DNA from: Acidimicrobiales bacterium | GTDB taxonomy: Bacteria > Actinomycetota > Acidimicrobiia > Acidimicrobiales > CADCSY01 | Assembly: GCA_035540955.1 (NCBI GenBank) | Contig: DATLFP010000058.1 | Span: 4,340 to 68,339, forward strand | DNA length: 64,000 nucleotides | Reading direction: 5' to 3' | Part shown: positions 12,900 to 51,963 of the stretch, piece after piece | Numbering within the stretch: the first letter of the stretch is position 1 | How the letters are laid out: the number at the start of each line of letters is the position of its first letter | Translations under genes and position numbers: made by a program | The notes under the pieces: generated by a model | Told to the model about the DNA's origin: nothing | What the model saw: the letters and a program-made list of their open reading frames with translations, nothing else | The model's database searches: none

Positions 12900-12942
12900 C
12901 GCACGGCGGGCCGAAGGCCCCCCACGCGCAGAGCGAAGACCA

Positions 12943-15603: not shown

Positions 15604-17217
15604 TCAGATGCGGGCGATGGCCTCGGCCTTGAGGCGCTTGTAGTCGACCTTGCCGTTCGGGGCCCGGCCGATGGTGGCGACCTCGAACACCCGCTTCGGC
15701 GACTTGTAGGCCGCCAGCTTCGTCCGGACGTGGGCGATCACGTCGGCCTCGTCCACCGTGGCACCGGGCCGGGCCTCGACCATGGCGGTGATGGCCTCGC
15801 CGAACTTCTCGTCGGGCACGCCGACGACGACCGCGTCGGCCACCGACGGGTGCTGCTTCAGCACCTCCTCGACCTCCTCGGGGAAGACCTTCTCGCCGCC
15901 GGTGTTGATGCACACCGAGCCCCGGCCGAGCAGCGTGAGCGAGCCGTCGGCCTCGACGGTGGCCCAGTCACCAGGGATCGAGTAGCGCTCGCCGTCGATG
16001 GTCACGAACGTGGCTGCCGTCTTCGCCTCGTCCTTGTAGTAGCCGAGCGGGTTCGGCCCCTTCAGCGCCACGAGCCCGGCTTCGCCCGAGCCGGGCTCGA
16101 CCCAGCGGGTGCGGTCCTCGCTCACCACCCGGGCACGGGGCCCGAGCGCGAACTTCGCGGTCTTGGCCACGCCCTGGCCGCCGCCGGAGACCGACTGGCC
16201 CATCCCGATCGCCTCCGAGGACGAGAAGCCGTCGGACAGCAGCATCATCGGGTGGTGGCGGAGGAGCCCCTCCTTCGTCTCCTGCGACCACATCACGCCC
16301 GAGGAGGCGATGAGCTTCAGCGAGGAGATGTCCCACTTGCCGGGCGCGTCGTCGAGGGCCCGCAGCATCGGCTTGGCGAAGGCGTCGCCGACGATCGCCA
16401 TCGAGTTCACGCCCTCCCGCTCGATGGTGTCGAGCAGCTCGACCACCTCGAAGTGGCGGTTGGTGAGGGTGACGATCGACCCGCCGACGTCCATGGCCCC
16501 GAACGAGGTGAGCGCGCCGGTGCCGTGCATGAGCGGGCACGCCGGCAGGTGCACCTGCTGGGGGCCGGCCTCGGCGACGATCCGCCGCATCTCCTCGGGT
16601 GACGCGTCCTCCGGGAACTTCACGGTGGCAGCCGCGTTGAGCATCGAGAACAGGTCGCCCTGGCGCCACATGACGCCCTTCGGCATGCCCGTGGTGCCAC
16701 CGGTGTAGAGCATGTAGAGGTCGTCGCCCGACCGGCCCCACGGCGGCACGGTGCGCTCGGTCGCCGCCCCCGCCGCCGTCTCGTAGGGCACCGCCCACTC
16801 GGGGCACGGGTTGGACCCGTCGTCGACCCAGAGCCAGGTCTGCACGCGCGGCACCTTCGAGCGGATCCGCTCGATGGTCTCGGTGAAGGTGCCGTGGAAC
16901 ACCACGGCGACGGCGTCGGCGTTGTCCCACAGGTAGACGAGCTCGTCGTCGGTGTAGCGGTAGTTGGTGTTCACCGGAGCGAGACCGGCCTTCACGATCC
17001 CGAACAGCGACTCGAGGTACTCGGGCCCGTTGTAGAGGTACTGGGCGACCTTGTCCTGCTGCTGCACGCCGGCGTCGAGCAGCGTGCGGGCGATGCCGTC
17101 GGCGCGGCGGTCCATCTCCGACCACGTGTACCTGCGGTCGCCGTGGACCTGGGCCTGCGCGTCGGGGAGGCCGTCGGCGACGGCCTCCCAGATGTCGGCG
17201 AAGGAGTGCTGCGTCAC
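15604..17217 (-). CDS. long-chain acyl-CoA synthetase (FadD-like), paralog 1
   Basis: 537 aa. Motifs YTGGTTGMPKGV, GDWATVEADGSLTLLGRGSVCINTGGEKV, GKVDYKRLK. GTG start at 17217. Confidence 0.9.
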   Translation of the reverse strand: MTQHSFADIWEAVADGLPDAQAQVHGDRRYTWSEMDRRADGIARTLLDAGVQQQDKVAQYLYNGPEYLESLFGIVKAGLAPVNTNYRYTDDELVYLWDNADAVAVVFHGTFTETIERIRSKVPRVQTWLWVDDGSNPCPEWAVPYETAAGAATERTVPPWGRSGDDLYMLYTGGTTGMPKGVMWRQGDLFSMLNAAATVKFPEDASPEEMRRIVAEAGPQQVHLPACPLMHGTGALTSFGAMDVGGSIVTLTNRHFEVVELLDTIEREGVNSMAIVGDAFAKPMLRALDDAPGKWDISSLKLIASSGVMWSQETKEGLLRHHPMMLLSDGFSSSEAIGMGQSVSGGGQGVAKTAKFALGPRARVVSEDRTRWVEPGSGEAGLVALKGPNPLGYYKDEAKTAATFVTIDGERYSIPGDWATVEADGSLTLLGRGSVCINTGGEKVFPEEVEEVLKQHPSVADAVVVGVPDEKFGEAITAMVEARPGATVDEADVIAHVRTKLAAYKSPKRVFEVATIGRAPNGKVDYKRLKAEAIARI

Positions 17218-17282
17218 GGCATCCGCGCCCGGCCTTCGGCCGGGCCGCTCGGGCCTCGCTCGCTCGTTCCTCGCTCGCTCAT
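17214..17282 (-). repeat. intergenic repeat IGR-C copy 1 with bridging mini-ORF (MSERGTSERGPSGPAEGRARMP)
   Basis: It fills the gap between the two fadD paralogs. The mini-ORF ATG (17282) overlaps the upstream TGA (ATGA) and its TGA overlaps the downstream GTG (GTGA). The sequence is nearly identical to 23445-23507 and contains a GGCC-GAA-GGCC hairpin. Confidence 0.7.
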
Positions 17283-18904
17283 GAGGCGCCGGCCCCCACC
17301 CGCTCGGTGGCCAGTGCCTTCAGCCGCTTGTAGTCGACCTTGGCGTTGGGCGCCCGCCCGATGGTGTCGACCACGACGACGTGCTTGGGCGCCTTGTAGG
17401 CCGCCAGCTTCCCCTTCACATGGGCGATGACGTCGGCGGCGTCGACCTCGGCGCCCGGCTCGGGCTCGACCACGGCGGTGATCGCCTCGCCGAACTTCTC
17501 GTCGGGCACGCCCACGGCGACGGCGTCGCGGATGGCCGGGTGCAGCTTCAGGACCTCCTCGACCTCCTCGGGGAAGACCTTCTCGCCACCGGTGTTGATG
17601 CACACCGACCCCCGCCCCAGCAGGGTGATCGTGCCGTCGGCCTCCACCTGGGCGAAGTCGCCGGGCAGGGAGTACCGGATCCCGTCGATGGTGGGGAACG
17701 TGGCGGCCGTCTTGGCCTCGTCCTTGTAGTAGCCGACCGGCACGCGGCCCTTGATGCCGAGCCGGCCGATCTCGCCGGAGCCGGGCTCGACGAGCTTCCC
17801 GTCCTCGGAGACCACCACGGCGTTGGGGCCGAGGTTGAACTTGGCCGTCTTCGCGGCGGCGTCGCCGGTCGACGCCGATGACCCCATGCCCACCGCCTCC
17901 GAGGAGCCGAGGGAGTCGGCGAGGATCATCGACGGGTGGTGCTTCAGCAGGCCCTGCTTCACCGGCTCGCTCCACATCACGCCCGAGCTGAGGACGACGA
18001 GCACCGAGGAGAGGTCCCACTTGCCGGGGTTGGCGTCGAGCGCTCGCAGCATCGGCTTGGCGAAGGCGTCACCCACGATCACCAGCACGTTGACGCCGTG
18101 CCGTTCGACGAGGTCGAACAGCTCGGCGGCGTCGAAGGAGCGGTTCTCGAGGAGCACGACGCACCCGCCCGCCTGGAGAGCGCCGAAGGACGAGAGCGCG
18201 CCGGTGCCGTGCATGAGCGGGCACGCCGGCAGCAGCTTGGGTCCCGGCCCCTGGGCGCGGCGCTGGGCGACGGCGTCCTCGAGGCTCGCCCCCTCGGGGT
18301 ACGGCACCAGGCCGCCGCCGTTCAGCAGCCAGAACAGGTCCTCCTGCCGCCACATGACGCCCTTGGGCATGCCGGTGGTGCCGCCGGTGTAGAGCATGTA
18401 GAGGTCGTCGCCGTCGCGCGCCCAGGGTGCCGTGGGGCGGTCGACCGTGCGGGACGCGACCTCCTCGTACGACACCGCCCAGTCCGGCATCTCGCCGGCG
18501 CCGTCGTCGACCCAGTACCAGCGCTCGACGCGGGGAACGCGATCGCGGATGCGCTCGATCGTCTCGGTGAACGTGGCGTGGAAGACCACGGCGACGGCGT
18601 CGGCGTTGTCCCACAGGTAGACGAGCTCGTCGTCGGCGTAGCGGTAGTTGGTGTTGACCGGCACGAGGCCGACCTTCCACCCGGCGTACAGCGACTCGAG
18701 GTACTCGGTGCAGTTGTGGAGGTACTGGGCGACCTTCGCCTGGTGGGTGACCCCGTCGAGGGTGAGCAGGTCGGCGGCGACGGCGTCGGCGCGCCGGTCG
18801 AAGTCGCGCCACGACTGCAGCCGTTCGCCCTGGATCTGGGCCGGCGCGTCCGGCTGGACCTCGGCGATCGCTTCCCAGACGTCGGCGTAGTTCATCCCCG
18901 GCAC
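17279..18904 (-). CDS. long-chain acyl-CoA synthetase (FadD-like), paralog 2
   Basis: 541 aa, colinear with and clearly similar to 15604-17217 (same motifs, for example YTGGTTGMPKGVMWRQEDLF). GTG 18904, with ATG 18895 as an alternative. Confidence 0.9.
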   Translation of the reverse strand: MPGMNYADVWEAIAEVQPDAPAQIQGERLQSWRDFDRRADAVAADLLTLDGVTHQAKVAQYLHNCTEYLESLYAGWKVGLVPVNTNYRYADDELVYLWDNADAVAVVFHATFTETIERIRDRVPRVERWYWVDDGAGEMPDWAVSYEEVASRTVDRPTAPWARDGDDLYMLYTGGTTGMPKGVMWRQEDLFWLLNGGGLVPYPEGASLEDAVAQRRAQGPGPKLLPACPLMHGTGALSSFGALQAGGCVVLLENRSFDAAELFDLVERHGVNVLVIVGDAFAKPMLRALDANPGKWDLSSVLVVLSSGVMWSEPVKQGLLKHHPSMILADSLGSSEAVGMGSSASTGDAAAKTAKFNLGPNAVVVSEDGKLVEPGSGEIGRLGIKGRVPVGYYKDEAKTAATFPTIDGIRYSLPGDFAQVEADGTITLLGRGSVCINTGGEKVFPEEVEEVLKLHPAIRDAVAVGVPDEKFGEAITAVVEPEPGAEVDAADVIAHVKGKLAAYKAPKHVVVVDTIGRAPNAKVDYKRLKALATERVGAGAS

Positions 18905-22745: not shown

Positions 22746-23174
22746 CTACTCGGTGATGCGGTAGGTCTGGACGGCCGACGCGACGACGCGGCCGTCGGCG
22801 TCGGTGGCTTCGATCTCGAGGAAGATCAGCTCGCGGGCGCGGCGCACGGTGCGGGCGGTGCACAGCAGGTCGGACTGGCGGGCGGCGCCGACGTAGTTGA
22901 CGGTCATGCTCACCGTCGACGCCTTCGAACCGCGGTCGAAGTCGTGGTTCGACCAGGCAGCCGCCGCGCCGGTCGTGTCGATCAGGGCGGCGACGACGCC
23001 GCCGTGGTACACGACGCCGTCGTTCGTGAGGTCCTCCCGGAACGGCAGCCGCATCCGCACGTGATCGGGCTCGTAGACCTCGAAGGTCATGCCCATCCGG
23101 CCGATGAAGGGCGTCTTCGGGAAGATCTCGGCGATGGCCGCCCGCTTGCGGACGTTCGGGTCGTCGTCGCTCAT
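22746..23174 (-). CDS. PaaI-family hotdog thioesterase
   Basis: 142 aa. GVVYHGGVVAALIDTTGAAA is typical of PaaI/4HBT class thioesterases. Confidence 0.85.
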   Translation of the reverse strand: MSDDDPNVRKRAAIAEIFPKTPFIGRMGMTFEVYEPDHVRMRLPFREDLTNDGVVYHGGVVAALIDTTGAAAAWSNHDFDRGSKASTVSMTVNYVGAARQSDLLCTARTVRRARELIFLEIEATDADGRVVASAVQTYRITE

Positions 23175-23419
23175 CGGCGGTTGACCGCCCCGAAGAGGAG
23201 GAGCAGGAGCGATGCGCCGACGAACGCGAGCAGGAGCGACCAGAGGCTGAACTCGTTGACGCCCGTCTCGCCGGCGGCGTTGGCGATGGCGCCCCCGATG
23301 AGCGCGCCCGCGACACCGAGGGCGATCCGGGTGAGGCAGCCACTGCTCTGCGCGCCCGTGGCCTTCTCGGCGAGGAGCCCGGCCAGGAAGCCGAGCACGA
23401 TCCAGGCGACGATGCTCAT
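23171..23419 (-). CDS. GlsB/YeaQ/YmgE-family small membrane stress protein
   Basis: 82 aa. MSIVAWIVLGFLAGLLAEK...GVAGALIGGAI matches the transglycosylase-associated protein family pattern. Its stop overlaps the thioesterase start by 4 nt. Confidence 0.85.
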   Translation of the reverse strand: MSIVAWIVLGFLAGLLAEKATGAQSSGCLTRIALGVAGALIGGAIANAAGETGVNEFSLWSLLLAFVGASLLLLLFGAVNRR

Positions 23420-23444
23420 GTAATCCGCTCTCGACGGTGCTGAC

Positions 23445-23507
23445 TCATGCTGTCCGCTCTCGGCCTTCGGCCGGGCCGCTCGGGCCCCGCTCGCTGCGCT
23501 CGCTCAT
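23445..23507 (-). repeat. intergenic repeat IGR-C copy 2 with mini-ORF (MSERSERGPSGPAEGRERTA)
   Basis: The minus-strand sequence ATGAGCGAGCGCAGCGAGCGGGGCCCGAGCGGCCCGGCCGAAGGCCGAGAGCGG... aligns with copy 1 apart from a 6-nt indel and a few substitutions. Its ATG overlaps the TGA of the reductase gene (ATGA). Confidence 0.7.
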
Positions 23508-24724
23508 GGTGTCTCGACCCTAGACACGAACGCGCCATCACCGGCAAGGGAGTGCTCACGCCACCTGCCCGGGGTGGCGAGCACGGCGCGCGGGTAGTCC
23601 TCGAACAACCAGCGGGCGAAGTTGCGGCGCGTCCATGCGTTGGCCCCGGCCAGTCGGACGGCGGCACGGGTGCCCTTGCGATGCCGCAGCGCCCGGATGA
23701 GCAGGCGGGACAGGGCGGCATCGGCCACCAGCTCCCGGCGGGCCGCCCGCGCGTAGGCGGGTCCGGCGCCGGTGGCGCCGCGGGCGAGGATCGCCTCGGC
23801 CGCCAAGCGACCGGTGAGCAGGGCCTGTCCGATGCCCTCGCCGGTCATGGGGTCGGTGGCGGCGGCGGCGTCGCCCACCACGAGCACCCGGCCGCCGCCG
23901 GCCGAGAGCGTGGCGGCCTCGATGCGGGCGGGGATGGGCCAGGCCTTGTGCGCCGCCTCGGGCCGGGCGTCGGGCCCCAGGAACACCTGCACGTGCTCCC
24001 GTTGCAGGAGGTCGGGCCACAGCGCGCCCATGGCCTGGGTCGCCACCTTGCCGCCCCGCTGGATGCCGAAGCCGACGTTGGCTCGGCCGCCGGGGAGCGG
24101 GAACGACCACGCGTAGCCGGGGAGCAGGTCGGCCTCGAACCACACGGCCAGGTGGCGCGCTCCCGGTCCGGTCACCCCCGTGAAGTACTGCCGGAAGGCG
24201 TGCCACTCACCCAGGTAGCCGGGCTCGATCGCGCCCACCGCCTTGCGCAGCGGCGACCACATCCCGTCGGCGGCGATGGCGTACCGGGCGGCGACGGGTC
24301 CGATGCCGGCGGCATGCACCACGACCCGCTCGGGGTCGACCTCGATCGCCTCGAAGCCGTGCCCGTCGGCCACCTTGGCGCCGGCGCTCCGCGCCAGGTC
24401 GACGAGGGCGGCGTCGAGCTCCATCCGGGGCACCACCGCGGCGTAGGTGCCCCGCTGGCGGGGGAGCGGGAACACGACCTCGCGACCCGACGGGCTGCGC
24501 ACGACGACGTCGTCCACCACCTGCCAGCCGGGGAGGTCGGGGACGAAGCCGAGCGCCTCGAGCTCGCGGAGGGCCAGGGTGGTGAGCCCGTCGCCGCAGC
24601 ACTTGTCGCGGGGGAAGACGGCCTTGTCCACGACGAGCACGTCGCGGCCGGCGCGCGCCAGCGGGACCGCCGCCGCCACCCCGGCCGGTCCGGCGCCCAC
24701 GACCACCACGTCGACCGCCTGCAC
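23504..24724 (-). CDS. geranylgeranyl reductase-family FAD oxidoreductase (MenJ-like)
   Basis: Start at GTG 24724 gives VQAVDVVVVGAGPAGVAAAVPLARAG (Rossmann GxGxxG), followed by KCCGDGL. 406 aa. The upstream third of the track ORF is Arg/Pro-rich read-through. Confidence 0.85.
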   Translation of the reverse strand: MQAVDVVVVGAGPAGVAAAVPLARAGRDVLVVDKAVFPRDKCCGDGLTTLALRELEALGFVPDLPGWQVVDDVVVRSPSGREVVFPLPRQRGTYAAVVPRMELDAALVDLARSAGAKVADGHGFEAIEVDPERVVVHAAGIGPVAARYAIAADGMWSPLRKAVGAIEPGYLGEWHAFRQYFTGVTGPGARHLAVWFEADLLPGYAWSFPLPGGRANVGFGIQRGGKVATQAMGALWPDLLQREHVQVFLGPDARPEAAHKAWPIPARIEAATLSAGGGRVLVVGDAAAATDPMTGEGIGQALLTGRLAAEAILARGATGAGPAYARAARRELVADAALSRLLIRALRHRKGTRAAVRLAGANAWTRRNFARWLFEDYPRAVLATPGRWREHSLAGDGAFVSRVETP

Positions 24725-24791
24725 GGCGCCCGAGGCTAGAGCCGCCGGCCGTGCCCGCCCTTCTCGGCGCGCGGCGCCGAGACCGAGCGGC

Positions 24792-28260: not shown

Positions 28261-30003
28261 ATGGTCGAGCTGGATCAGCCGTGGGTCGTGGACAACCGAC
28301 CCAGTGAGCGGTTCCGCATCTACACGCGGGCGAACGTCGGCGAGGTGTTCCCCGATCCCGTCACCCCGCTGTCCTGGACGGTGGCCGGCGCGAAGTACGG
28401 CGAGGCCGGCTGGCGCGACGCGCTCGAGCGCTTCGGTGCCGTCACGCACGCCGAGTTCGATCCCGACAACCTCGAGGTCATGGGCGTGTTCGGGGGGTAC
28501 TGCTACCTGAACGTGTCGGTCTCCCGGCTGATGGGGGTGCGCACGCCAGGGCTCACGTGGGAGGCGATCGACTACTCGCTGTTCGGGGTGCAGCCCGGCA
28601 TCCCGCCCTACGAACCGGCGGACGGCGACGAGAGCGACGAGCGGTCGGCGGCGTGCGGCGCCACCCTGCAGTGGATCCTCACCACCGAGTCGCTGCCCGA
28701 GCTGGTCGAGCACCAGCAGGCCATCGCCGAGCTGCGGGCCGAGCGCCCGGACCTCACGACGCTGCCGGACGCCGCGCTCGTCGACCGCCTGCGCGACCTG
28801 ATGGGCACCTGGTTCCGCACGCTGTTCGGCGAGCACCTCTTCATCACCTACTGCTCGACGGTGCCGGCGGGGATCATCGCCCAGGTGTGCCAGGCGGTCG
28901 GCGATCCCACCCTCGCCAACCGGCTCATCGCCGGCATCGGCGGGGTCGACTCGGCGGCGCCGTCATGGGCCATGTGGGAGCTGGGCCGGATGGCGGCGGC
29001 GTCACCGGCGATCACCGCCCAGTTCGAGGCGGGGACCGGCGATCTCGTCGAGCGGCTGCGGGCCAGCGACGACCCCGAGGAGCAGCGGTTCGTCGCCGCC
29101 TTCGACGACTTCCTCTACGAGTTCGGCTCCCGGGGCCCCAACGAGTGGGAGATGCGGTCGCCGACGTGGGAGACCCGGCCCGGTCTCGCGCTCGGCGCCA
29201 TCGACCGGATGCGGCTCACCAGCGAGATCGACGCCCCGCAGAAGCACCACGAGGCGATGGCCGCCGACCGGGAGGCGCTCGTGGCCCACATCGGTGAGCA
29301 GCTGGCGGGCGATCCCGAGACGCAGGGCCAGTTCCTCGCCGCCGTGCGCGCCGCCGGGGTGTTCCTCGCCGGCCGGGAGCGCACCAAGACGACGATCATC
29401 CGGCTGACGCACGAGGCCCGGATGGCGATGCGCGAGCTCGGTCGGCGGATGGTCGAGGCCGGTCACTTCGACGACATCAACGACTTCGGGATGATCCGCG
29501 ACGACGAGTACGACGCGTTCCTAGCCGATCCGGCGTCGTTCACCGGGACCATCCGCGAACGCAAGGCGTGGTACGCCGAGCTGGCGGCACTCGAGCCGCC
29601 GTTCGTGGTCACCACCGGCAACATCCCGCCGGCCTCGACGTGGGCGCGTCGCGACGCGGACCGCCACGACCTCGCGCAGCCCGGAGACGTGCTCGAGGGG
29701 CTGCCCGGGTGCCCAGGTGTGGCCACGGGCCGGGCGCGGGTGATCCTCGACAGCAACGACCCGACGGCGCTCGAGCCCGGCGACGTGCTCGTCGCCCCCA
29801 TCACCGACCCGTCCTGGACACCGCTGTTCGTCCCCGCGGCGGCCGTCGTCGTCGACGTCGGCGCCCAGATCAGCCACGCCATCATCGTCAGCCGGGAGCT
29901 GGGCATCCCGTGCGTGGTGTCGGTGACCGGTGGTACCAAGCGGATCCCCGACGGTGCGACGGTCACCGTCGACGGCACGAAGGGCACGGTGACGGTCCTG
30001 TGA
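28261..30003 (+). CDS. PEP-utilizing enzyme (mobile/swivel phosphohistidine domain) protein, RPH/PpsA-like without an ATP-grasp domain, paralog 1
   Basis: The C-terminal ~100 aa are a swivel domain with the conserved His (GCPGVATGRARVI...ITDPSWTPLF...GAQISHAIIVSRELGIPCVV). The N-terminal ~480 aa show no ATP-grasp motifs. ATG 28261 chosen because it sits divergent from nucS. Confidence 0.85.
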   Translation: MVELDQPWVVDNRPSERFRIYTRANVGEVFPDPVTPLSWTVAGAKYGEAGWRDALERFGAVTHAEFDPDNLEVMGVFGGYCYLNVSVSRLMGVRTPGLTWEAIDYSLFGVQPGIPPYEPADGDESDERSAACGATLQWILTTESLPELVEHQQAIAELRAERPDLTTLPDAALVDRLRDLMGTWFRTLFGEHLFITYCSTVPAGIIAQVCQAVGDPTLANRLIAGIGGVDSAAPSWAMWELGRMAAASPAITAQFEAGTGDLVERLRASDDPEEQRFVAAFDDFLYEFGSRGPNEWEMRSPTWETRPGLALGAIDRMRLTSEIDAPQKHHEAMAADREALVAHIGEQLAGDPETQGQFLAAVRAAGVFLAGRERTKTTIIRLTHEARMAMRELGRRMVEAGHFDDINDFGMIRDDEYDAFLADPASFTGTIRERKAWYAELAALEPPFVVTTGNIPPASTWARRDADRHDLAQPGDVLEGLPGCPGVATGRARVILDSNDPTALEPGDVLVAPITDPSWTPLFVPAAAVVVDVGAQISHAIIVSRELGIPCVVSVTGGTKRIPDGATVTVDGTKGTVTVL

Positions 30004-31736
30004 GAACCACCTTCATCACCGACACGCAGCCGAGTGAGAAGTACCGCATCGTGTCGCGCGCGAACGCCGGTGAGGTCATGCCCGACCCGTGCTCACCGCT
30101 GAACGCGACGCTGGGCATGTTCGAGGCCGGGGAGAAGGGCTGGCGGGACGCGTACGTCGTCACCGGCACCTTCCGGCGCGACGAGTTCGAGCCCGATCGC
30201 ACGAACACCATCCACTGCTTCGGCGGCTACATGTACATCAACATGTCGCTGACGCGGCTGTACGGCCTCCGAACCGGGCTGATGACCCCCGAGCAGGTCG
30301 ACCTCCAGTACTTCGGGGAGATGGCGGGCATCCCGCCGTACGAGGACGAGGCGCGGCCGACCGACGTCTCGCCCGAGGCGACCGAGAAGCTCACGGCCTT
30401 CTTCGCGTCCGAGGTCTGGGCGAAGGAGGACCTGCCCGAGCTGCGGGACGACGCCGCGCAGACCGAGCGGCTCGTGCGTTCGCGGCCCGACTTCGCCGAG
30501 CTGTCGAACCAGGAGCTCGTCGACCACGCGCGCTCGTTCGTCCCGCTCTACCGCCGCCTGTTCGGCCGTCACATCATCATCTCCGGCAACTCGGGTATGG
30601 GGATCGGGACGGTCTCGGCGGTCTGCGCCGCCGTCGGCCGCCCCGAGCTCACCATGACGCTGGTGGCGGGCCTCGGCGACGTCGACTCGGCGGCGCCGTC
30701 GATGGCGATGTGGGATCTCGGCCGGCTGGTCGCGGGATCCGAGGCGCTGACCGCCGCGTTCCGCGCCGGCGTGCCCGGGCTGCTCGACCGGTTGCGGGCG
30801 GACGGCTCGAAGGACGTCCAGCGCTTCCTCGACGGGTTCGACGCGCTGCTCGAGCGGTTCGGGTCGCGGGGCCCGAACGAGTGGGAGCTGCGCTCGCACA
30901 CGTGGGGGACCAAGCCCGAGCTGGCGCTGGCGGCCATCGACCGCATGCGGCTGTCGCCCGACGGTGCCGCTCCCGCCGGCCACCAGGCCGAGCGCAAGGC
31001 GGAGGCCGACGCCGCGGCCGACGAGGTGCGGGTACTCGTGGCCGGCGACGCCGAGGCGGCGGGTCAGTTCGAGGCCGGCCTGCGGGCGGCCCGCCTGTTC
31101 CTCGCCGGTCGCGAGCGATCGAAGACGAACTGCATCCGCATCGTGCAGGAGATGCGCTTGGCGCTGCGCGAGGTCGGTCGCCGCCTCCTCGACGCCGGCC
31201 ACCTCGACACGGTGGAGCAGCTGTTCATGTTCACCGACGACGAGCTCGATCAGGTGCTCGTCGACCCCGGGGCGTGGACGGCCGTCGCCCGCGAGCGCGA
31301 GCAGCAGTACCTCGAGCTGTTCGAGCTCGAACCGCCGTTCGTGATCGTGGGCGACCCGCCGCCGCTGTCGTCGTGGACGCGGCGCGACGCTTCCACGGTC
31401 GAGCAGGCCGTCGCCGGCACCGTGCTCACCGGCATCCCCGGTTGCCCGGGAACGGCCCGGGGCCGGGCCCGGGTGATCCTCGATCCGTCCGATCCGACCG
31501 CGCTCGAGCCCGGCGACATCCTCGTCGCCCCGCTCACCGACCCGGCGTGGACGCCGCTGTTCGTCCCCGCCGCGGCCGTCGTCGTCGACGTCGGCGCCCA
31601 GATCACCCACGCCGTGATCGTGAGCCGCGAGCTCGGGATCCCGTGCGTCGTCTCGGTCACCGGGGCAACGAAGACCATCCCCGACGGCGCCGAGATCGAG
31701 GTCGACGGCACCACCGGCACCGTCACGCTCCTCTGA
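30000..31736 (+). CDS. PEP-utilizing enzyme (swivel domain) protein, paralog 2
   Basis: Colinear with paralog 1 throughout (RANAGEVMPDPCSPL..., GSRGPNEWELRS..., GAQITHAVIVSRELGIPCVV). The GTG at 30000 overlaps the paralog-1 stop (GTGA). Confidence 0.85.
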   Translation: MRTTFITDTQPSEKYRIVSRANAGEVMPDPCSPLNATLGMFEAGEKGWRDAYVVTGTFRRDEFEPDRTNTIHCFGGYMYINMSLTRLYGLRTGLMTPEQVDLQYFGEMAGIPPYEDEARPTDVSPEATEKLTAFFASEVWAKEDLPELRDDAAQTERLVRSRPDFAELSNQELVDHARSFVPLYRRLFGRHIIISGNSGMGIGTVSAVCAAVGRPELTMTLVAGLGDVDSAAPSMAMWDLGRLVAGSEALTAAFRAGVPGLLDRLRADGSKDVQRFLDGFDALLERFGSRGPNEWELRSHTWGTKPELALAAIDRMRLSPDGAAPAGHQAERKAEADAAADEVRVLVAGDAEAAGQFEAGLRAARLFLAGRERSKTNCIRIVQEMRLALREVGRRLLDAGHLDTVEQLFMFTDDELDQVLVDPGAWTAVAREREQQYLELFELEPPFVIVGDPPPLSSWTRRDASTVEQAVAGTVLTGIPGCPGTARGRARVILDPSDPTALEPGDILVAPLTDPAWTPLFVPAAAVVVDVGAQITHAVIVSRELGIPCVVSVTGATKTIPDGAEIEVDGTTGTVTLL

Positions 31737-48045: not shown

Positions 48046-49677
48046 ATGGCAACGAAGCATCTCGTGGTCGATGGATCGAACATCGCGACCGAAGGTCGGA
48101 CGATGCCTTCGCTCGCGCAGCTCGACGAAGCCGTGCGCGCGTTCATCGCCGAGCGGCCGATGGACAACTACACCGTGATCGTCGACGCCACGTTCGAGCA
48201 CCGCATCGACGCGTCGGAGCGGAAGCTCTACGACGACGCGCTTGCCGCCAACGAGCTCATCGTCACGCCGGCCGGGACCGTCGGTCGCGGCGACCGCTTC
48301 ATCCTCGAGGTTGCCGACCGCGCCGGTGCCATCGTGCTCTCGAACGACTCGTTCCAGGAGTTCCACGGCGACTACGGCTGGCTGTTCGACTCGGGACGCC
48401 TGATCGGCGGCCGGCCGGTCCCCGGCGTCGGCTGGGTGTTCGTCGAGCGCTCACCGGTGCGAGGACCCAAGAGCCGCCAGGCGACCCGCGACGCCAAGCG
48501 CAAGCGGGGGCCGGCCACCAAGGCGGCCGCCGCGCCCCGCGCGGCGCCCACGGCGCCCTCGAAGTCGTCGGGGCGCCCCCGAGGGGCGAAGAAGGCGGTG
48601 GGCGACGCCGCACCTGCGAAGCGGGCGAAGGCGGCCGGGCCGGGCAAGGCGGCCGGCAAGCCGGCCGGCAAGCCGCCGGCGGCGAAGGCGCCGCCGCGCG
48701 AGGGCGATGGCCGGCGCCGGACCGGTCGTCCTCAGCAGCCGCTCAACGACCAGCTGCCCTTCATCGAGTTCATCGCCGAGCACCTGCCGGGCAGCACGGT
48801 CGAGGGCGAGGTCGTGGAGTTCAGCAGCCACGGCGCCTATGTCCAGATCGGCGACGTCCGCTGCTACGTCCCGCTGAAGAACATGGGCGACCCGCCGCCC
48901 CGCAGCGCGCGCGACGTGCTCGAGCGGGGCCAGGTCCGCACGTTCGTCGTCCACTCCATCGAAGCGGCCCGGCGCGGGATCGACCTCGCGCTGCCCGGCT
49001 TCGAACGCATCGCGGCATCGCCGACCGAACCGGTCGCGACGCCACCTCGGCCCCGCCGCTCGCGCGCGGCAGCGGCCGACACGACCCTGCCGGTTGCCGC
49101 GTCGAACGACGCCGCTCCGGCAGTGGACAGGGCCCCGGCTGCGGCCGGGGCGAACCAGCCCGAAAGCGAGGCCACACTGGCAGCAACCAAGAAGGCAGCG
49201 GGTCGAAAGACCGCGGCCAAGAAGAGCACGGCTCGCAAGAGCACGGCGAAGAAGGCCACGGCCCGGAAGTCGACCGCTCGCAAGGCAACTGCCAAGCGCG
49301 CGCCGGCGAAGAAGGCCACGGCTCGGAAGCGCACCGCCAAGAAGGCGACGGCCAAGAAGTCGACCGCCAAGAAGGCGACTGCCCGGAAGAGCACGGCCAA
49401 GAAGAGCGCAGCCAAGAAGAGCACGGCTCGCAAGAGCACGGCCAAGAAGGCTGCGAAGAAGAGCACGGCCAAGAAGAGCACCGCGAAGAAGGCGGGTGCC
49501 CGGAAGAGCTCGGCCAAGAAGGCCGGCGCTCGCAAGCGCCCGGCCAAGAAGAGCACAGCCAAGAAGAGCACGGCTCGCAAGAGCACGGCTCGCAAGCGCC
49601 CGGCCAAGAAGAGCACGGCTCGCAAGAGCACGGCCCGGAAGGCCGGCGCCCGGAAGAGCACGGCGCGCAAGCGCTGA
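48046..49677 (+). CDS. NYN (Zc3h12a/regnase-like) ribonuclease domain - S1-like domain - histone-H1-like Lys/Ala/Thr/Ser repeat tail protein
   Basis: N-terminal [11 protein letters not shown]...[25 protein letters not shown] (cf. regnase VVIDGSNVA...DDRFIV...GIVVSNDTY). Middle segment [27 protein letters not shown] (S1 fold). The last ~160 aa are about 30 repeats of (K/R)K(S/A)TA. Confidence 0.8.
49186..49674 (+). repeat. coding tandem repeat (15-nt / 5-codon periodicity) encoding the basic tail
   Basis: Units such as AAGAAGAGCACGGC(T/C)CGCAAGAGCACGGCC recur many times with small variations. They are in frame and lie inside the 48046-49677 CDS. Confidence 0.85.
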
Positions 49678-49693
49678 GCCCTGCGTCTCCGTT

Positions 49694-49737
49694 CTGGGAC
49701 TGGTTCGCCCGGGCACGCCCGGTCGGGCCAGTCCCAG
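49694..49737. terminator. hairpin between convergent genes
   Basis: CTGGGACTGG (49694-49703) pairs with CCAGTCCCAG (49728-49737), with further imperfect pairing inside (TTCGCCCGGG / CCCGGTCGGG). Confidence 0.45.
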
Positions 49738-51853: not shown

Positions 51854-51963
51854 CTCACGAAGGTTGTCGCGCTCGCCCGGTCGGGGCGGGTGTCCGCGAC
51901 AACCTTCGAGCCCGGTCGGGGCGGGTGTCCGCGACAACCTTCGAGCTCGGTGGGGGGTGGCGG
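51854..51963. repeat. intergenic repeat IGR-A copy 2 with a perfect 35-bp internal tandem duplication
   Basis: It fills the gap between convergent genes. The left arm CGAAGGTTGTCGCG (51858-51871) is complementary to CGCGACAACCTTCG at 51895-51908 and again at 51930-51943. The units 51876-51910 and 51911-51945 are identical. Confidence 0.75.

What the first reader, a model, noticed from the sequence alone, without database searches (positions are those of the whole stretch)
17214..17282. IGR-C subtype: two near-identical copies encoding a conserved MSER..SERGPSGPAEGR peptide
Read on the minus strand, 17282-17214 is ATGAGCGAGCGAGGAACGAGCGAGCGAGGCCCGAGCGGCCCGGCCGAAGGCCGGGCGCGGATGCCGTGA. The segment 23507-23445 is ATGAGCGAGCGCAGCGAGCGGGGCCCGAGCGGCCCGGCCGAAGGCCGAGAGCGGACAGCATGA. 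They differ by one 6-nt (two-codon) in-frame indel and a few substitutions near the 3' end. Both start with an ATG overlapping the TGA of the upstream gene. Both contain a GGCC-GAA-GGCC mini-hairpin; the C-GAA-G triloop is a well-known very stable motif. A related GGGCC-GAA-GGCCC hairpin also occurs at about 12907-12925 in another convergent gap. The in-frame indel is compatible with selection on the peptide, but could equally be chance.
Basis: seen in the sequence. Interest (0 to 1): 0.6.

Follow-up and report, generated by a model that had tools for sequence, protein, structure and literature searches.

The report
MIRU-like start-codon repeat in Acidimicrobiia
The two look-alike segments are copies of a small repeat of uncultured Acidimicrobiia that sits on gene start codons and carries a throw-away reading frame and ribosome-binding site, apparently relaying ribosomes to the next gene, the design known from mycobacterial MIRU repeats.

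Summary
Both segments are real and share an exact 26-nt core that chance does not explain. They belong to a family with about 20 copies in this Acidimicrobiia MAG and 3-57 copies in six of its 40 sampled relatives. It occurs in 36 of 401 sampled genomes of the class, and in no other class of the phylum.

Each unit, typically 59 nt, is a mini-ORF. Its NTG start overlaps the upstream TGA stop, and its own TGA overlaps the start of the next gene. Inside are a nearly invariant hairpin, a second hairpin kept by compensatory changes, and a Shine-Dalgarno-like AGGAGCGG.

Of 95 arrays, 75 relay through NTGA junctions onto the downstream start and 11 are fused in frame with it. None is clearly out of phase, whereas simulated 1- or 2-nt indels push 17-53% out of phase.

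The peptide itself is not conserved: the hairpin region is read as GPSGP or ARAAR, and third codon positions show no excess variation.

Filled and empty sites show insertion at the stop/start overlap or right after the start codon. Sites are mostly genome-specific.

Verdict: an apparently undescribed family of the known MIRU kind. Translation was not measured and the mobilising enzyme is unknown.

The parts
17214..17282 (-). Element copy 1: a 65-nt unit forming a 22-codon mini-ORF (MSERGTSERGPSGPAEGRARMP). Its ATG at 17282-17280 overlaps the upstream TGA at 17281-17279. Its TGA at 17216-17214 overlaps the GTG start at 17217-17215 of the next gene.
17242..17255 (-). Copy 1, hairpin 1 (GGCCCGAGCGGCCC), the nearly invariant core of the family.
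17231..17241 (-). Copy 1, hairpin 2 (GGCC-GAA-GGCC): a 4-bp stem with a C(GNA)G triloop.
17218..17230 (-). Copy 1, degraded Shine-Dalgarno-like box and spacer (GGGCGCGGATGCC; the family consensus is AGGAGCGGAnnAC).
23445..23507 (-). Element copy 2: a canonical 59-nt unit forming a 20-codon mini-ORF (MSERSERGPSGPAEGRERTA). Its ATG overlaps the upstream TGA at 23506-23504. Its TGA overlaps the ATG at 23448-23446.
23473..23486 (-). Copy 2, hairpin 1 (GGCCCGAGCGGCCC).
23462..23472 (-). Copy 2, hairpin 2 (GGCC-GAA-GGCC).
23449..23461 (-). Copy 2, Shine-Dalgarno-like box and spacer (GAGAGCGGACAGC).
23416..23448 (-). Second relay mini-ORF of 10 codons (MSQHRRERIT). It keeps only the 3' module of a unit (GAGAGCGGATTAC ATGA), and its TGA overlaps the ATG of the 82-aa gene.
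   Evidence: relay 59, 29; weak 3'-module hit, E 0.51
17279..18904 (-). Upstream gene of copy 1: AMP-binding enzyme (541 aa), with an ordinary 5' region of its own.
15604..17217 (-). Downstream gene of copy 1: a tandem paralogue of the AMP-binding enzyme (537 aa). The copies are 72-84% identical over the repeated blocks.
23504..24730 (-). Upstream gene of copy 2: FAD-binding monooxygenase-type enzyme. The ORF is open up to 25231 and its true start was not fixed.
23171..23419 (-). Downstream gene of copy 2: 82-aa transglycosylase-associated (GlsB/YeaQ-type) membrane protein. It is itself ATGA-coupled to a thioesterase gene at 22746-23174.

Best explanation
The two segments are copies of a short, non-autonomous repeat family of the class Acidimicrobiia that is built like a mycobacterial MIRU. 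A unit, typically 59 nt, lies immediately after a gene's start codon, most often inside a 4-nt NTGA stop/start overlap between co-directional genes. It ends with a new NTG(A). This leaves NTGA at both ends.

The original start codon now opens a throw-away mini-ORF that runs through the unit. The mini-ORF passes two small hairpins and a Shine-Dalgarno-like AGGAGCGG, and it stops at a TGA that overlaps the new start of the interrupted gene.

Inferred mechanism: ribosomes that finish the upstream gene, or that load on the unit's own SD, are handed on to the downstream gene. The insertion therefore costs little, and units can multiply in tandem, each being one more relay link.

Shown here: the anatomy, the strict co-orientation with genes, the phase rule, the covarying hairpin, the filled and empty sites, and the lineage-specific sites.

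Not shown here: that the mini-ORFs are translated, that coupling works, what the hairpins do, and which enzyme moves the element.
For: Family and anatomy: 22 profile hits in the own genome. Nearly all are NTGA-to-NTGA mini-ORFs ending on a long ORF with GC3 above 0.9.

Phase rule: of 95 arrays from 7 genomes, 75 relay exactly onto the downstream start and 11 are in frame with it. The other 9 are cut by N-runs, fall just under my GC3 cut-off, lack a start at the predicted position, or (L132) reach only a short downstream ORF. In 71 of the 95 the upstream stop overlaps the first start. Simulated -1 or +2 indels make 52-53% of arrays out of phase, and +1 or -2 indels make 17-18% so. A 3-nt deletion makes none so.

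Tandem arrays: arrays built of 60-nt units still sum to 2 mod 3 (170 nt in L017, 224 nt in L016). Tandem periods are 59, 62 and 92 nt.

Hairpin 2: 42 distinct sequences have a mean end-anchored stem of 4.1 bp, against 1.8 in shuffles (maximum 2.3). Pairs switch between CG, GC, TA and TG, with 1 non-pair in 60 cells of the 13-nt class. G-T wobbles occur and A-C never does, which points to the sense strand.

Filled versus empty sites: G021 has ..GTC ATGA[55 nt]ATGA GC.. where the own genome has ..GTC GTGA CC... A 4-unit array in G005 corresponds to a bare GTGA in the own genome. At the def-fmt-like junction, G001 is filled (TTGA..59..ATGA) and the own genome is empty (TAG G TTG). Same-genus G001 lacks the element at the junction of window copy 2.

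Turnover: the 95 arrays fall into 88 locus groups. Only 6 loci are shared between genomes, and those differ in array length or unit make-up.

Downstream genes have no common function.

Literature: MIRUs are 40-100 bp, lie in polycistronic spacers, carry ORFs that overlap both neighbours, and show tetranucleotide direct repeats at filled sites. They are read as inserting at start codons with -4 coupling (PMC3184786; PMC12548453).
Against: Canonical 59-nt single units carry the phase by descent, so only the length variants are independent evidence, perhaps 25 arrays. Some of those may share ancestry.

The SD-like box is degraded in window copy 1 (GGGCGCGG). Predicted folding energies are no better than shuffles at this GC content (z from +0.4 to -1.4).

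No mobilising gene was found. The near-invariance of hairpin 1 across a whole class is not explained by a purely selfish element.

The genomes are MAGs. Arrays often sit at contig ends, so copy numbers are lower bounds and shared sites may be under-counted.
Confidence: 0.75

Rival explanations
1. It is mainly a structural RNA or DNA element of the REP/BIME type. The hairpins would act as mRNA stabilisers, RNase processing sites or protein-binding sites between cistrons. The open frame would only be a by-product of lying between coupled genes.
For: Hairpin 2 is kept by compensatory changes, and hairpin 1 is nearly invariant across the class. G-T wobbles point to folding of the sense strand.
Against: REP-type elements have no phase rule and occur in both orientations, including convergent gaps. 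Here every evaluable array is co-directional with, and locked onto, the downstream start. Out-of-phase length variants are missing. No T-run follows the hairpins. No Y1/RAYT transposase is present in any element-bearing genome. There is no Rfam match. This role could still exist alongside the relay role.
Confidence: 0.1
2. The mini-ORF encodes a functional small peptide (MSERSERGPSGPAEGxERTx).
For: The frame is always open, it has a start codon and often an SD, and most 59-nt units read GPSGP (32 of the 35 peptide variants).
Against: Three of the 35 peptide variants, and several longer units, read the core in another frame as ARAAR, through compensating indels. Third codon positions show no excess variability. 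Units are truncated, fused to neighbouring genes, or reduced to 11-29-nt links that keep only the phase. The peptide is of low complexity.
Confidence: 0.03
3. It is a host-selected regulatory leader or uORF module that tunes expression of particular operons, for example in response to amino-acid supply or a binding protein at hairpin 1. On this view it is not a mobile insertion.
For: Hairpin 1 is conserved across the class. Some copies lie in 5' leaders rather than between genes (C28). A strong SD plus ATG can replace a weak native start (TTG in the own genome versus ATG in G001).
Against: Downstream genes are functionally unrelated. Sites are almost all genome-specific, even within one genus. 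Orthologous junctions in the closest relatives are empty. Shared sites differ in array length between species.
Confidence: 0.08

Closest known systems
MIRU, mycobacterial interspersed repetitive units (Supply et al. 1997, as summarised in PMC3184786 and PMC12548453)
   Same: A short (40-100 bp) GC-rich repeat with internal inverted repeats and tens of copies per genome, often in tandem. It lies in spacers of polycistronic operons in the sense orientation. Its ORF overlaps the stop of the upstream gene and the start of the downstream gene with -4 spacing. Filled sites carry tetranucleotide direct repeats, and empty sites exist in relatives. Copy number varies between lineages.
   Different: It occurs in another class (Acidimicrobiia, not Mycobacteriales). 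No sequence similarity was detectable: the covariance model found nothing outside the class in about 380 other Actinomycetota genomes, although I could not align it with a MIRU sequence directly. The typical unit is 59 nt with its own modules. The class-wide spread, the missing out-of-phase variants and the covarying hairpin are my own results here. I did not check whether the same has been reported for MIRUs.
Synthetic bicistronic design (BCD) translation-initiation cassettes (cited in PMC12548453)
   Same: A short leader ORF carries the SD of the next gene inside it, and its stop overlaps that gene's start. Translating ribosomes therefore open local structure and deliver initiation.
   Different: This one is natural, repeated and mobile. 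It sits behind a preceding gene and can be chained in tandem.
REP/BIME elements with RAYT transposases
   Same: Small GC-rich hairpin repeats dispersed between genes.
   Different: REPs lie after stop codons in either orientation, have no ORF or phase constraint, and go with a Y1 (RAYT) transposase. That transposase is absent from all seven element-bearing genomes.
MITEs
   Same: A non-autonomous short insertion with a short direct repeat at the target.
   Different: By eye, the ends (ATGAGCGAGCG... and ...GGAGCGGAnnAC) show no terminal inverted repeats. The target is a start codon or stop/start overlap, not a generic short site.

Membership tests
MIRU (mycobacterial interspersed repetitive units) | Short repeat of about 40-100 bp in tens of copies per genome, often in tandem arrays | tested here: met
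   Units are 59-92 nt. Genomes carry 20, 5, 57, 3, 20, 29 and 15 matches. Arrays reach 9 units.
MIRU (mycobacterial interspersed repetitive units) | Lies between co-directional genes in the sense orientation, with an ORF whose start and stop overlap the neighbours' stop and start | tested here: met
   In 71 of 95 arrays the upstream stop overlaps the first start. In 75 of 95 the relay ends exactly on the downstream start, and 11 of 95 are fused in frame.
MIRU (mycobacterial interspersed repetitive units) | Filled sites flanked by a tetranucleotide direct repeat, with empty sites in relatives | tested here: met
   NTGA lies on both sides of filled sites. Empty GTGA sites, or start-codon-only sites, are found in the own genome or in G001.
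MIRU (mycobacterial interspersed repetitive units) | Sequence homology to the mycobacterial units | tested here: inconclusive
   Model R1 finds no match outside the class in a 401-genome sample of the phylum. No MIRU sequence could be retrieved from the paper library.
MIRU (mycobacterial interspersed repetitive units) | Host is a Mycobacterium | tested here: not met
   Record titles of the closest loci name Acidimicrobiales/Acidimicrobiia MAGs. It is therefore filed as MIRU-like, not as a MIRU.
MIRU (mycobacterial interspersed repetitive units) | Transcribed as part of the polycistronic mRNA | not testable with these tools
REP/BIME with RAYT | Y1 (IS200-like, PF01797) transposase in the genomes that carry the repeat | tested here: not met
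   PF01797 has 0 matches in G000, G001, G005, G013, G015, G021 and G035. It is present only in 3 genomes that lack the element.
REP/BIME with RAYT | Extragenic palindromes in either orientation, without a reading-frame constraint | tested here: not met
   Orientation is strictly co-directional and the phase rule holds.
Intrinsic terminator | GC-rich hairpin followed by a T-run | tested here: not met
   No terminator-like site lies at either copy, and the hairpins are followed by AGGAGCGG.
Any Rfam RNA family | Match to a curated covariance model | tested here: not met
   No match at gathering score over the window, and none at E up to 10 on 23380-23580.

The most novel reading that the evidence does not exclude
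The cassette is not just tolerated junk. Its invariant hairpin 1 (GGGGCCCGAGCGGCCC) next to a shape-conserved hairpin 2 would be the recognition module of an unknown enzyme, not a Y1 transposase. That enzyme would place the unit right after start codons, which would be a start-codon-targeted mobilisation mechanism shared across Acidimicrobiia. Alternatively, the host uses the units as portable translation-initiation and relay modules, including recruitment of units as protein N-termini.
Probability: 0.2. Interest if true: 0.7.

Novelty: new member of a known kind. Interest (0 to 1): 0.42.

Why it matters
The finding indicates that the MIRU design is not a mycobacterial oddity. That design is a repeat on a start codon that pays its way with a relay ORF. 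Here it recurs as an unrelated-looking family across a whole class of mostly uncultured actinobacteria.

The missing out-of-phase variants are indirect but genome-wide evidence that such mini-ORFs are read by ribosomes.

There are practical consequences. Annotation pipelines will miscall starts, spacers and N-terminal extensions at these sites. The arrays break MAG assemblies. The loci could serve as VNTR-type strain markers. The unit is also a natural version of the bicistronic expression cassettes used in synthetic biology.

How MIRU-type elements move is still unknown. A second family that is widespread and active makes it possible to look for the enzyme by phylogenetic profiling.

Tried and rejected
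- **Rfam:** no match over the whole window or at permissive E on copy 2.
- **Terminator and promoter scans:** nothing at the elements.
- **Single-sequence folding:** energies are no better than shuffles at this GC content, so they are uninformative. RNAalifold on the 20-copy alignment gave a near-zero covariation term, because own-genome copies are too alike. Covariation appeared only after adding variants from other genomes.
- **RAYT/IS200 mobilisation:** rejected.
- **Peptide selection:** rejected.
- **Orthologues of the AMP-binding gene:** 80 other genomes carry no element there and no tandem paralogue, so they give no empty site for copy 1.
- **MIRU sequence for direct alignment:** a paper search for recalled sub-strings found nothing relevant.
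- **Literature on repeats in Acidimicrobiia or MIRU-like elements elsewhere:** nothing found.
- **The 12907-12925 hairpin:** not detectable as a family member.
- **Other repeat segments of the window:** they do not match the C-type profile.
Full report
**Observation.** They share an exact 26-nt core, GGCCCGAGCGGCCCGGCCGAAGGCCG. This core occurs twice in the window and never in 100 dinucleotide-preserving shuffles. The copies differ by one 6-nt insertion and about eight substitutions, mostly in the last 17 nt.

Each ATG overlaps the TGA of a long high-GC3 ORF. These are an AMP-binding enzyme at 17279-18904 and an FAD-binding enzyme ending at 23504. In copy 1 this is the GTGA at 17217-17214, on the start of a paralogous AMP-binding gene. 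In copy 2 it is the ATGA at 23448-23445. That ATG opens a second, 33-nt mini-ORF (23448-23416), which ends in another ATGA on the start of an 82-aa membrane-protein gene.

**The family.** The window is C58:4340-68339 of a 4.24-Mb, 268-contig genome with 72% GC. Record titles of the closest loci place it in the Acidimicrobiales/Acidimicrobiia. Iterated nhmmer finds 22 copies in it, including a tandem pair with a 59-nt period.

The consensus unit has five parts:
- NTGAGCGAGCGnAGCGAGCG;
- hairpin 1, GGGGCCCGAGCGGCCC;
- hairpin 2, for example GGCC-GAA-GGCC;
- AGGAGCGG;
- a 5-7-nt spacer, then the next NTGA.

Translated from the first NTG, almost every copy stops at a TGA that overlaps an ATG or GTG. 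That start opens a long ORF with GC3 of 0.92-0.98.

**Distribution.** I built a covariance model from 20 copies (R1).
- Among 40 relatives it finds the element in the same-genus genome (5 matches), in three genomes of another genus of the family (57, 20 and 29), in one further family member (3), and in a genome of another family (15). That last genome has 62-nt arrays of up to 9 units.
- In a 401-genome sample of the class, 36 genomes in 20 of 178 genera have matches at E of 1e-5 or below.
- All 16 distant loci I read have the same NTGA-to-NTGA design, with units up to 92 nt.
- In a 401-genome sample of the phylum, nothing outside the class matches.
- Rfam has no match.

**Phase, not peptide.** I fetched about 75 arrays from the relatives. 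In each I followed translation from the upstream gene's stop, or from the first unit's start, through successive NTGA junctions.

Of 95 arrays:
- 75 relay exactly onto the start of a long high-GC3 downstream ORF;
- 11 are in frame with it, that is, an N-terminal fusion;
- the other 9 are cut by N-runs (L106, and both arrays in L109), fall just below my GC3 threshold (L114, L122), reach only a short, low-GC3 downstream ORF (L132), or lack a start codon at the predicted position. Of this last group, L147 and L151 are resolved by eye as relays and L128 stays ambiguous.

In 71 of the 95 the upstream stop overlaps the first mini-ORF start.

Relay links are 14, 29, 35, 50, 56, 59, 62, 65, 68, 71, 74 and 92 nt. 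Units of 39, 51, 57 or 60 nt occur only in two situations. Either the array then runs in frame into the gene, or the array as a whole still sums to 2 mod 3 (60+60+50 = 170 nt in L017; 54+60+60+50 = 224 nt in L016). I saw no unit of 58 or 61 nt.

As a control, I made random indels in the same arrays. A -1 or +2 indel makes 52-53% of arrays out of phase. A +1 or -2 indel makes 17-18% so, and a -3 deletion makes none so. About 25 natural arrays contain units whose length is not 2 mod 3, and none is out of phase. On that rough count the absence is unlikely to be chance, about 1e-5 if the arrays are independent, which is not certain.

The peptide is not what is kept. Some copies have one base fewer early in the unit and one more later, and they read the hairpin region as ARAAR instead of GPSGP. 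Variability at codon positions 1, 2 and 3 is 0.058, 0.124 and 0.124. Truncated units are fused to the C-terminus of the upstream gene or the N-terminus of the downstream gene.

**Hairpins.** Hairpin 1 is nearly invariant in sequence across the class. Hairpin 2 varies in sequence but not in shape. Its 42 distinct versions have a mean end-anchored stem of 4.1 bp, against 1.8 in shuffles (maximum 2.3). Stem pairs switch between CG, GC, TA and TG, with one non-pair in 60 cells of the 13-nt class. The loops are mostly C(GNA)G. G-T wobbles occur five times and A-C never, a modest sign that the sense strand folds, as RNA or as sense single-stranded DNA.

No T-run follows the hairpins. Single-sequence folding energies are uninformative at this GC content.

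**Insertion sites.**
- In G021 the sequence is ..GTC ATGA[55 nt]ATGA GC.., where the own genome has ..GTC GTGA CC.. at the orthologous junction.
- A four-unit array in G005 corresponds to a bare GTGA in the own genome.
- A five-unit array in G005 corresponds to an 11-nt link (ATGAGCCGGTC + ATGA) in the own genome.
- At a junction that by sequence looks like def-fmt, G001 is filled (TTGA, 59 nt, ATGA) and the own genome is empty (TAG G TTG). The native start codon therefore becomes the mini-ORF start, and the unit supplies a new ATG.
- At the junction of window copy 2, the same-genus genome G001 has only TAA, 9 nt and GTG. That copy is therefore absent from the one same-genus genome available and is most simply a gain in this lineage.
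- Copy 1 sits between tandem AMP-binding paralogues. The 12 closest of 80 other Acidimicrobiia loci that I read show a single gene behind an ordinary upstream region, and none of the 80 loci contains the element.

The 95 arrays fall into 88 locus groups. Only six loci are shared between genomes, and those differ in array length or unit make-up. MAG incompleteness inflates this figure somewhat.

Downstream genes are unrelated in function. They include a beta-lactamase-family protein, a radical SAM enzyme, an SDR, an ABC transporter, RibF, a MaoC dehydratase, an acyl-CoA dehydrogenase and a luciferase-like oxidoreductase.

**Mechanism.** The best reading is a non-autonomous insertion that lands right after a start codon, usually in an NTGA overlap. 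It is tolerated because it restores what it interrupts. The old start opens a relay ORF, an SD lies 8 nt before the new start, and the relay ORF's stop overlaps that start, so terminating ribosomes can re-initiate. Tandem duplication adds further links.

The missing out-of-phase variants are what one expects if ribosomes really read the units, because a ribosome running out of frame over the downstream start would block it. That ribosomes read the units, and that the relay works, are inferences.

The role of the hairpins and the agent of mobility remain open. The Y1/RAYT idea fails, because PF01797 is absent from all seven element-bearing genomes.

**Comparison with known systems.** Two reviews summarise Supply et al. 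1997. MIRUs are 40-100 bp and number 40-50 per genome. They lie in polycistronic spacers, carry ORFs whose ends overlap the neighbouring genes, and have GC-rich internal inverted repeats. Their filled sites carry tetranucleotide direct repeats, and empty sites exist in a relative (PMC3184786). They appear to insert at start codons so that their ORF is coupled at -4 nt (PMC12548453).

Every structural criterion is met here. The host is not a Mycobacterium, and no sequence homology is detectable. I therefore file it as a new family of the MIRU kind, not as a MIRU.

I found no paper describing such elements in Acidimicrobiia. Earlier notes of this scan report the same design in many other genomes, including an 86-nt Acidimicrobiia repeat. 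Those notes are unverified, but they lower the surprise.

**Limits.**
- MAG assemblies break at these repeats. Several hits lie at contig ends, so copy numbers are lower bounds.
- Independence of the length variants is only partly controlled.

Noticed in passing
51854-51963 contains a direct duplication of a CGAAGGTTGTCGCG... module.
   Followed up: partly
window 12905-12927: GGGCC-GAA-GGCCC mini-hairpin in a convergent gap, followed by AGAGCGAAGACCATCA. That tail loosely resembles the 3' module of the element (AGGAGCGGAAGACATGA). It may be a decayed relic, but it is not detected by the profile.
   Followed up: partly
window 15604-18904 and 29083-31713: Two separate tandem gene duplications: the AMP-binding paralogues with a period near 1690, and a second pair with a period near 1735. 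The first pair is joined exactly by element copy 1. The 12 closest orthologous loci that I read show a single gene.
   Followed up: partly
G000 contigs C23:13199-13263, C32:22189-22254, C179:10693-10763: Three large transporter genes, which look paralogous by their N-terminal sequences (716-979 aa), each have an element copy at their start. In C23 and C32 the unit is in frame. In C32 the 3' ATG is replaced by CTG, so the unit-derived sequence must be translated as the protein's N-terminus.
   Followed up: partly
L101 (G001:C44:3625-3705), L102 (G001:C295:7645-7708): A related 74-nt subtype in the same-genus genome. It has the same 5' module (GTGAGCGAGCGnAGCGAGCG), then ATGAGCATCGCGC...GAGGC ATGAGT in place of the two hairpins. 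It is again a relay that ends on the downstream ATG.
   Followed up: no
L166 (G356:C11:111555-111699): An array of 46-nt units (1 mod 3) that lack hairpin 2. Two units together make a 92-nt relay link, and the last unit is 47 nt, so the array still ends in phase with the downstream ATG.
   Followed up: partly
G000 C88 around 19200 and C129 around 5530: Very short relay mini-ORFs (ATGAGCCGGTC+ATGA, and a 27-nt MRAFEARS ORF). They lie at junctions where a related genus has 3-5-unit arrays, so they could be footprints of collapsed arrays.
   Followed up: no
window 49168-49718: Long run of 15-nt periodic repeats inside a coding region, the lysine-rich tail already noted elsewhere in this scan.
   Followed up: no
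G015:C112:34-99, G021:C89:24-148, G013:C40:21-92, G005:C133:36-101: Several arrays lie within 100 nt of contig ends, which suggests that these repeats break MAG assemblies.
   Followed up: no
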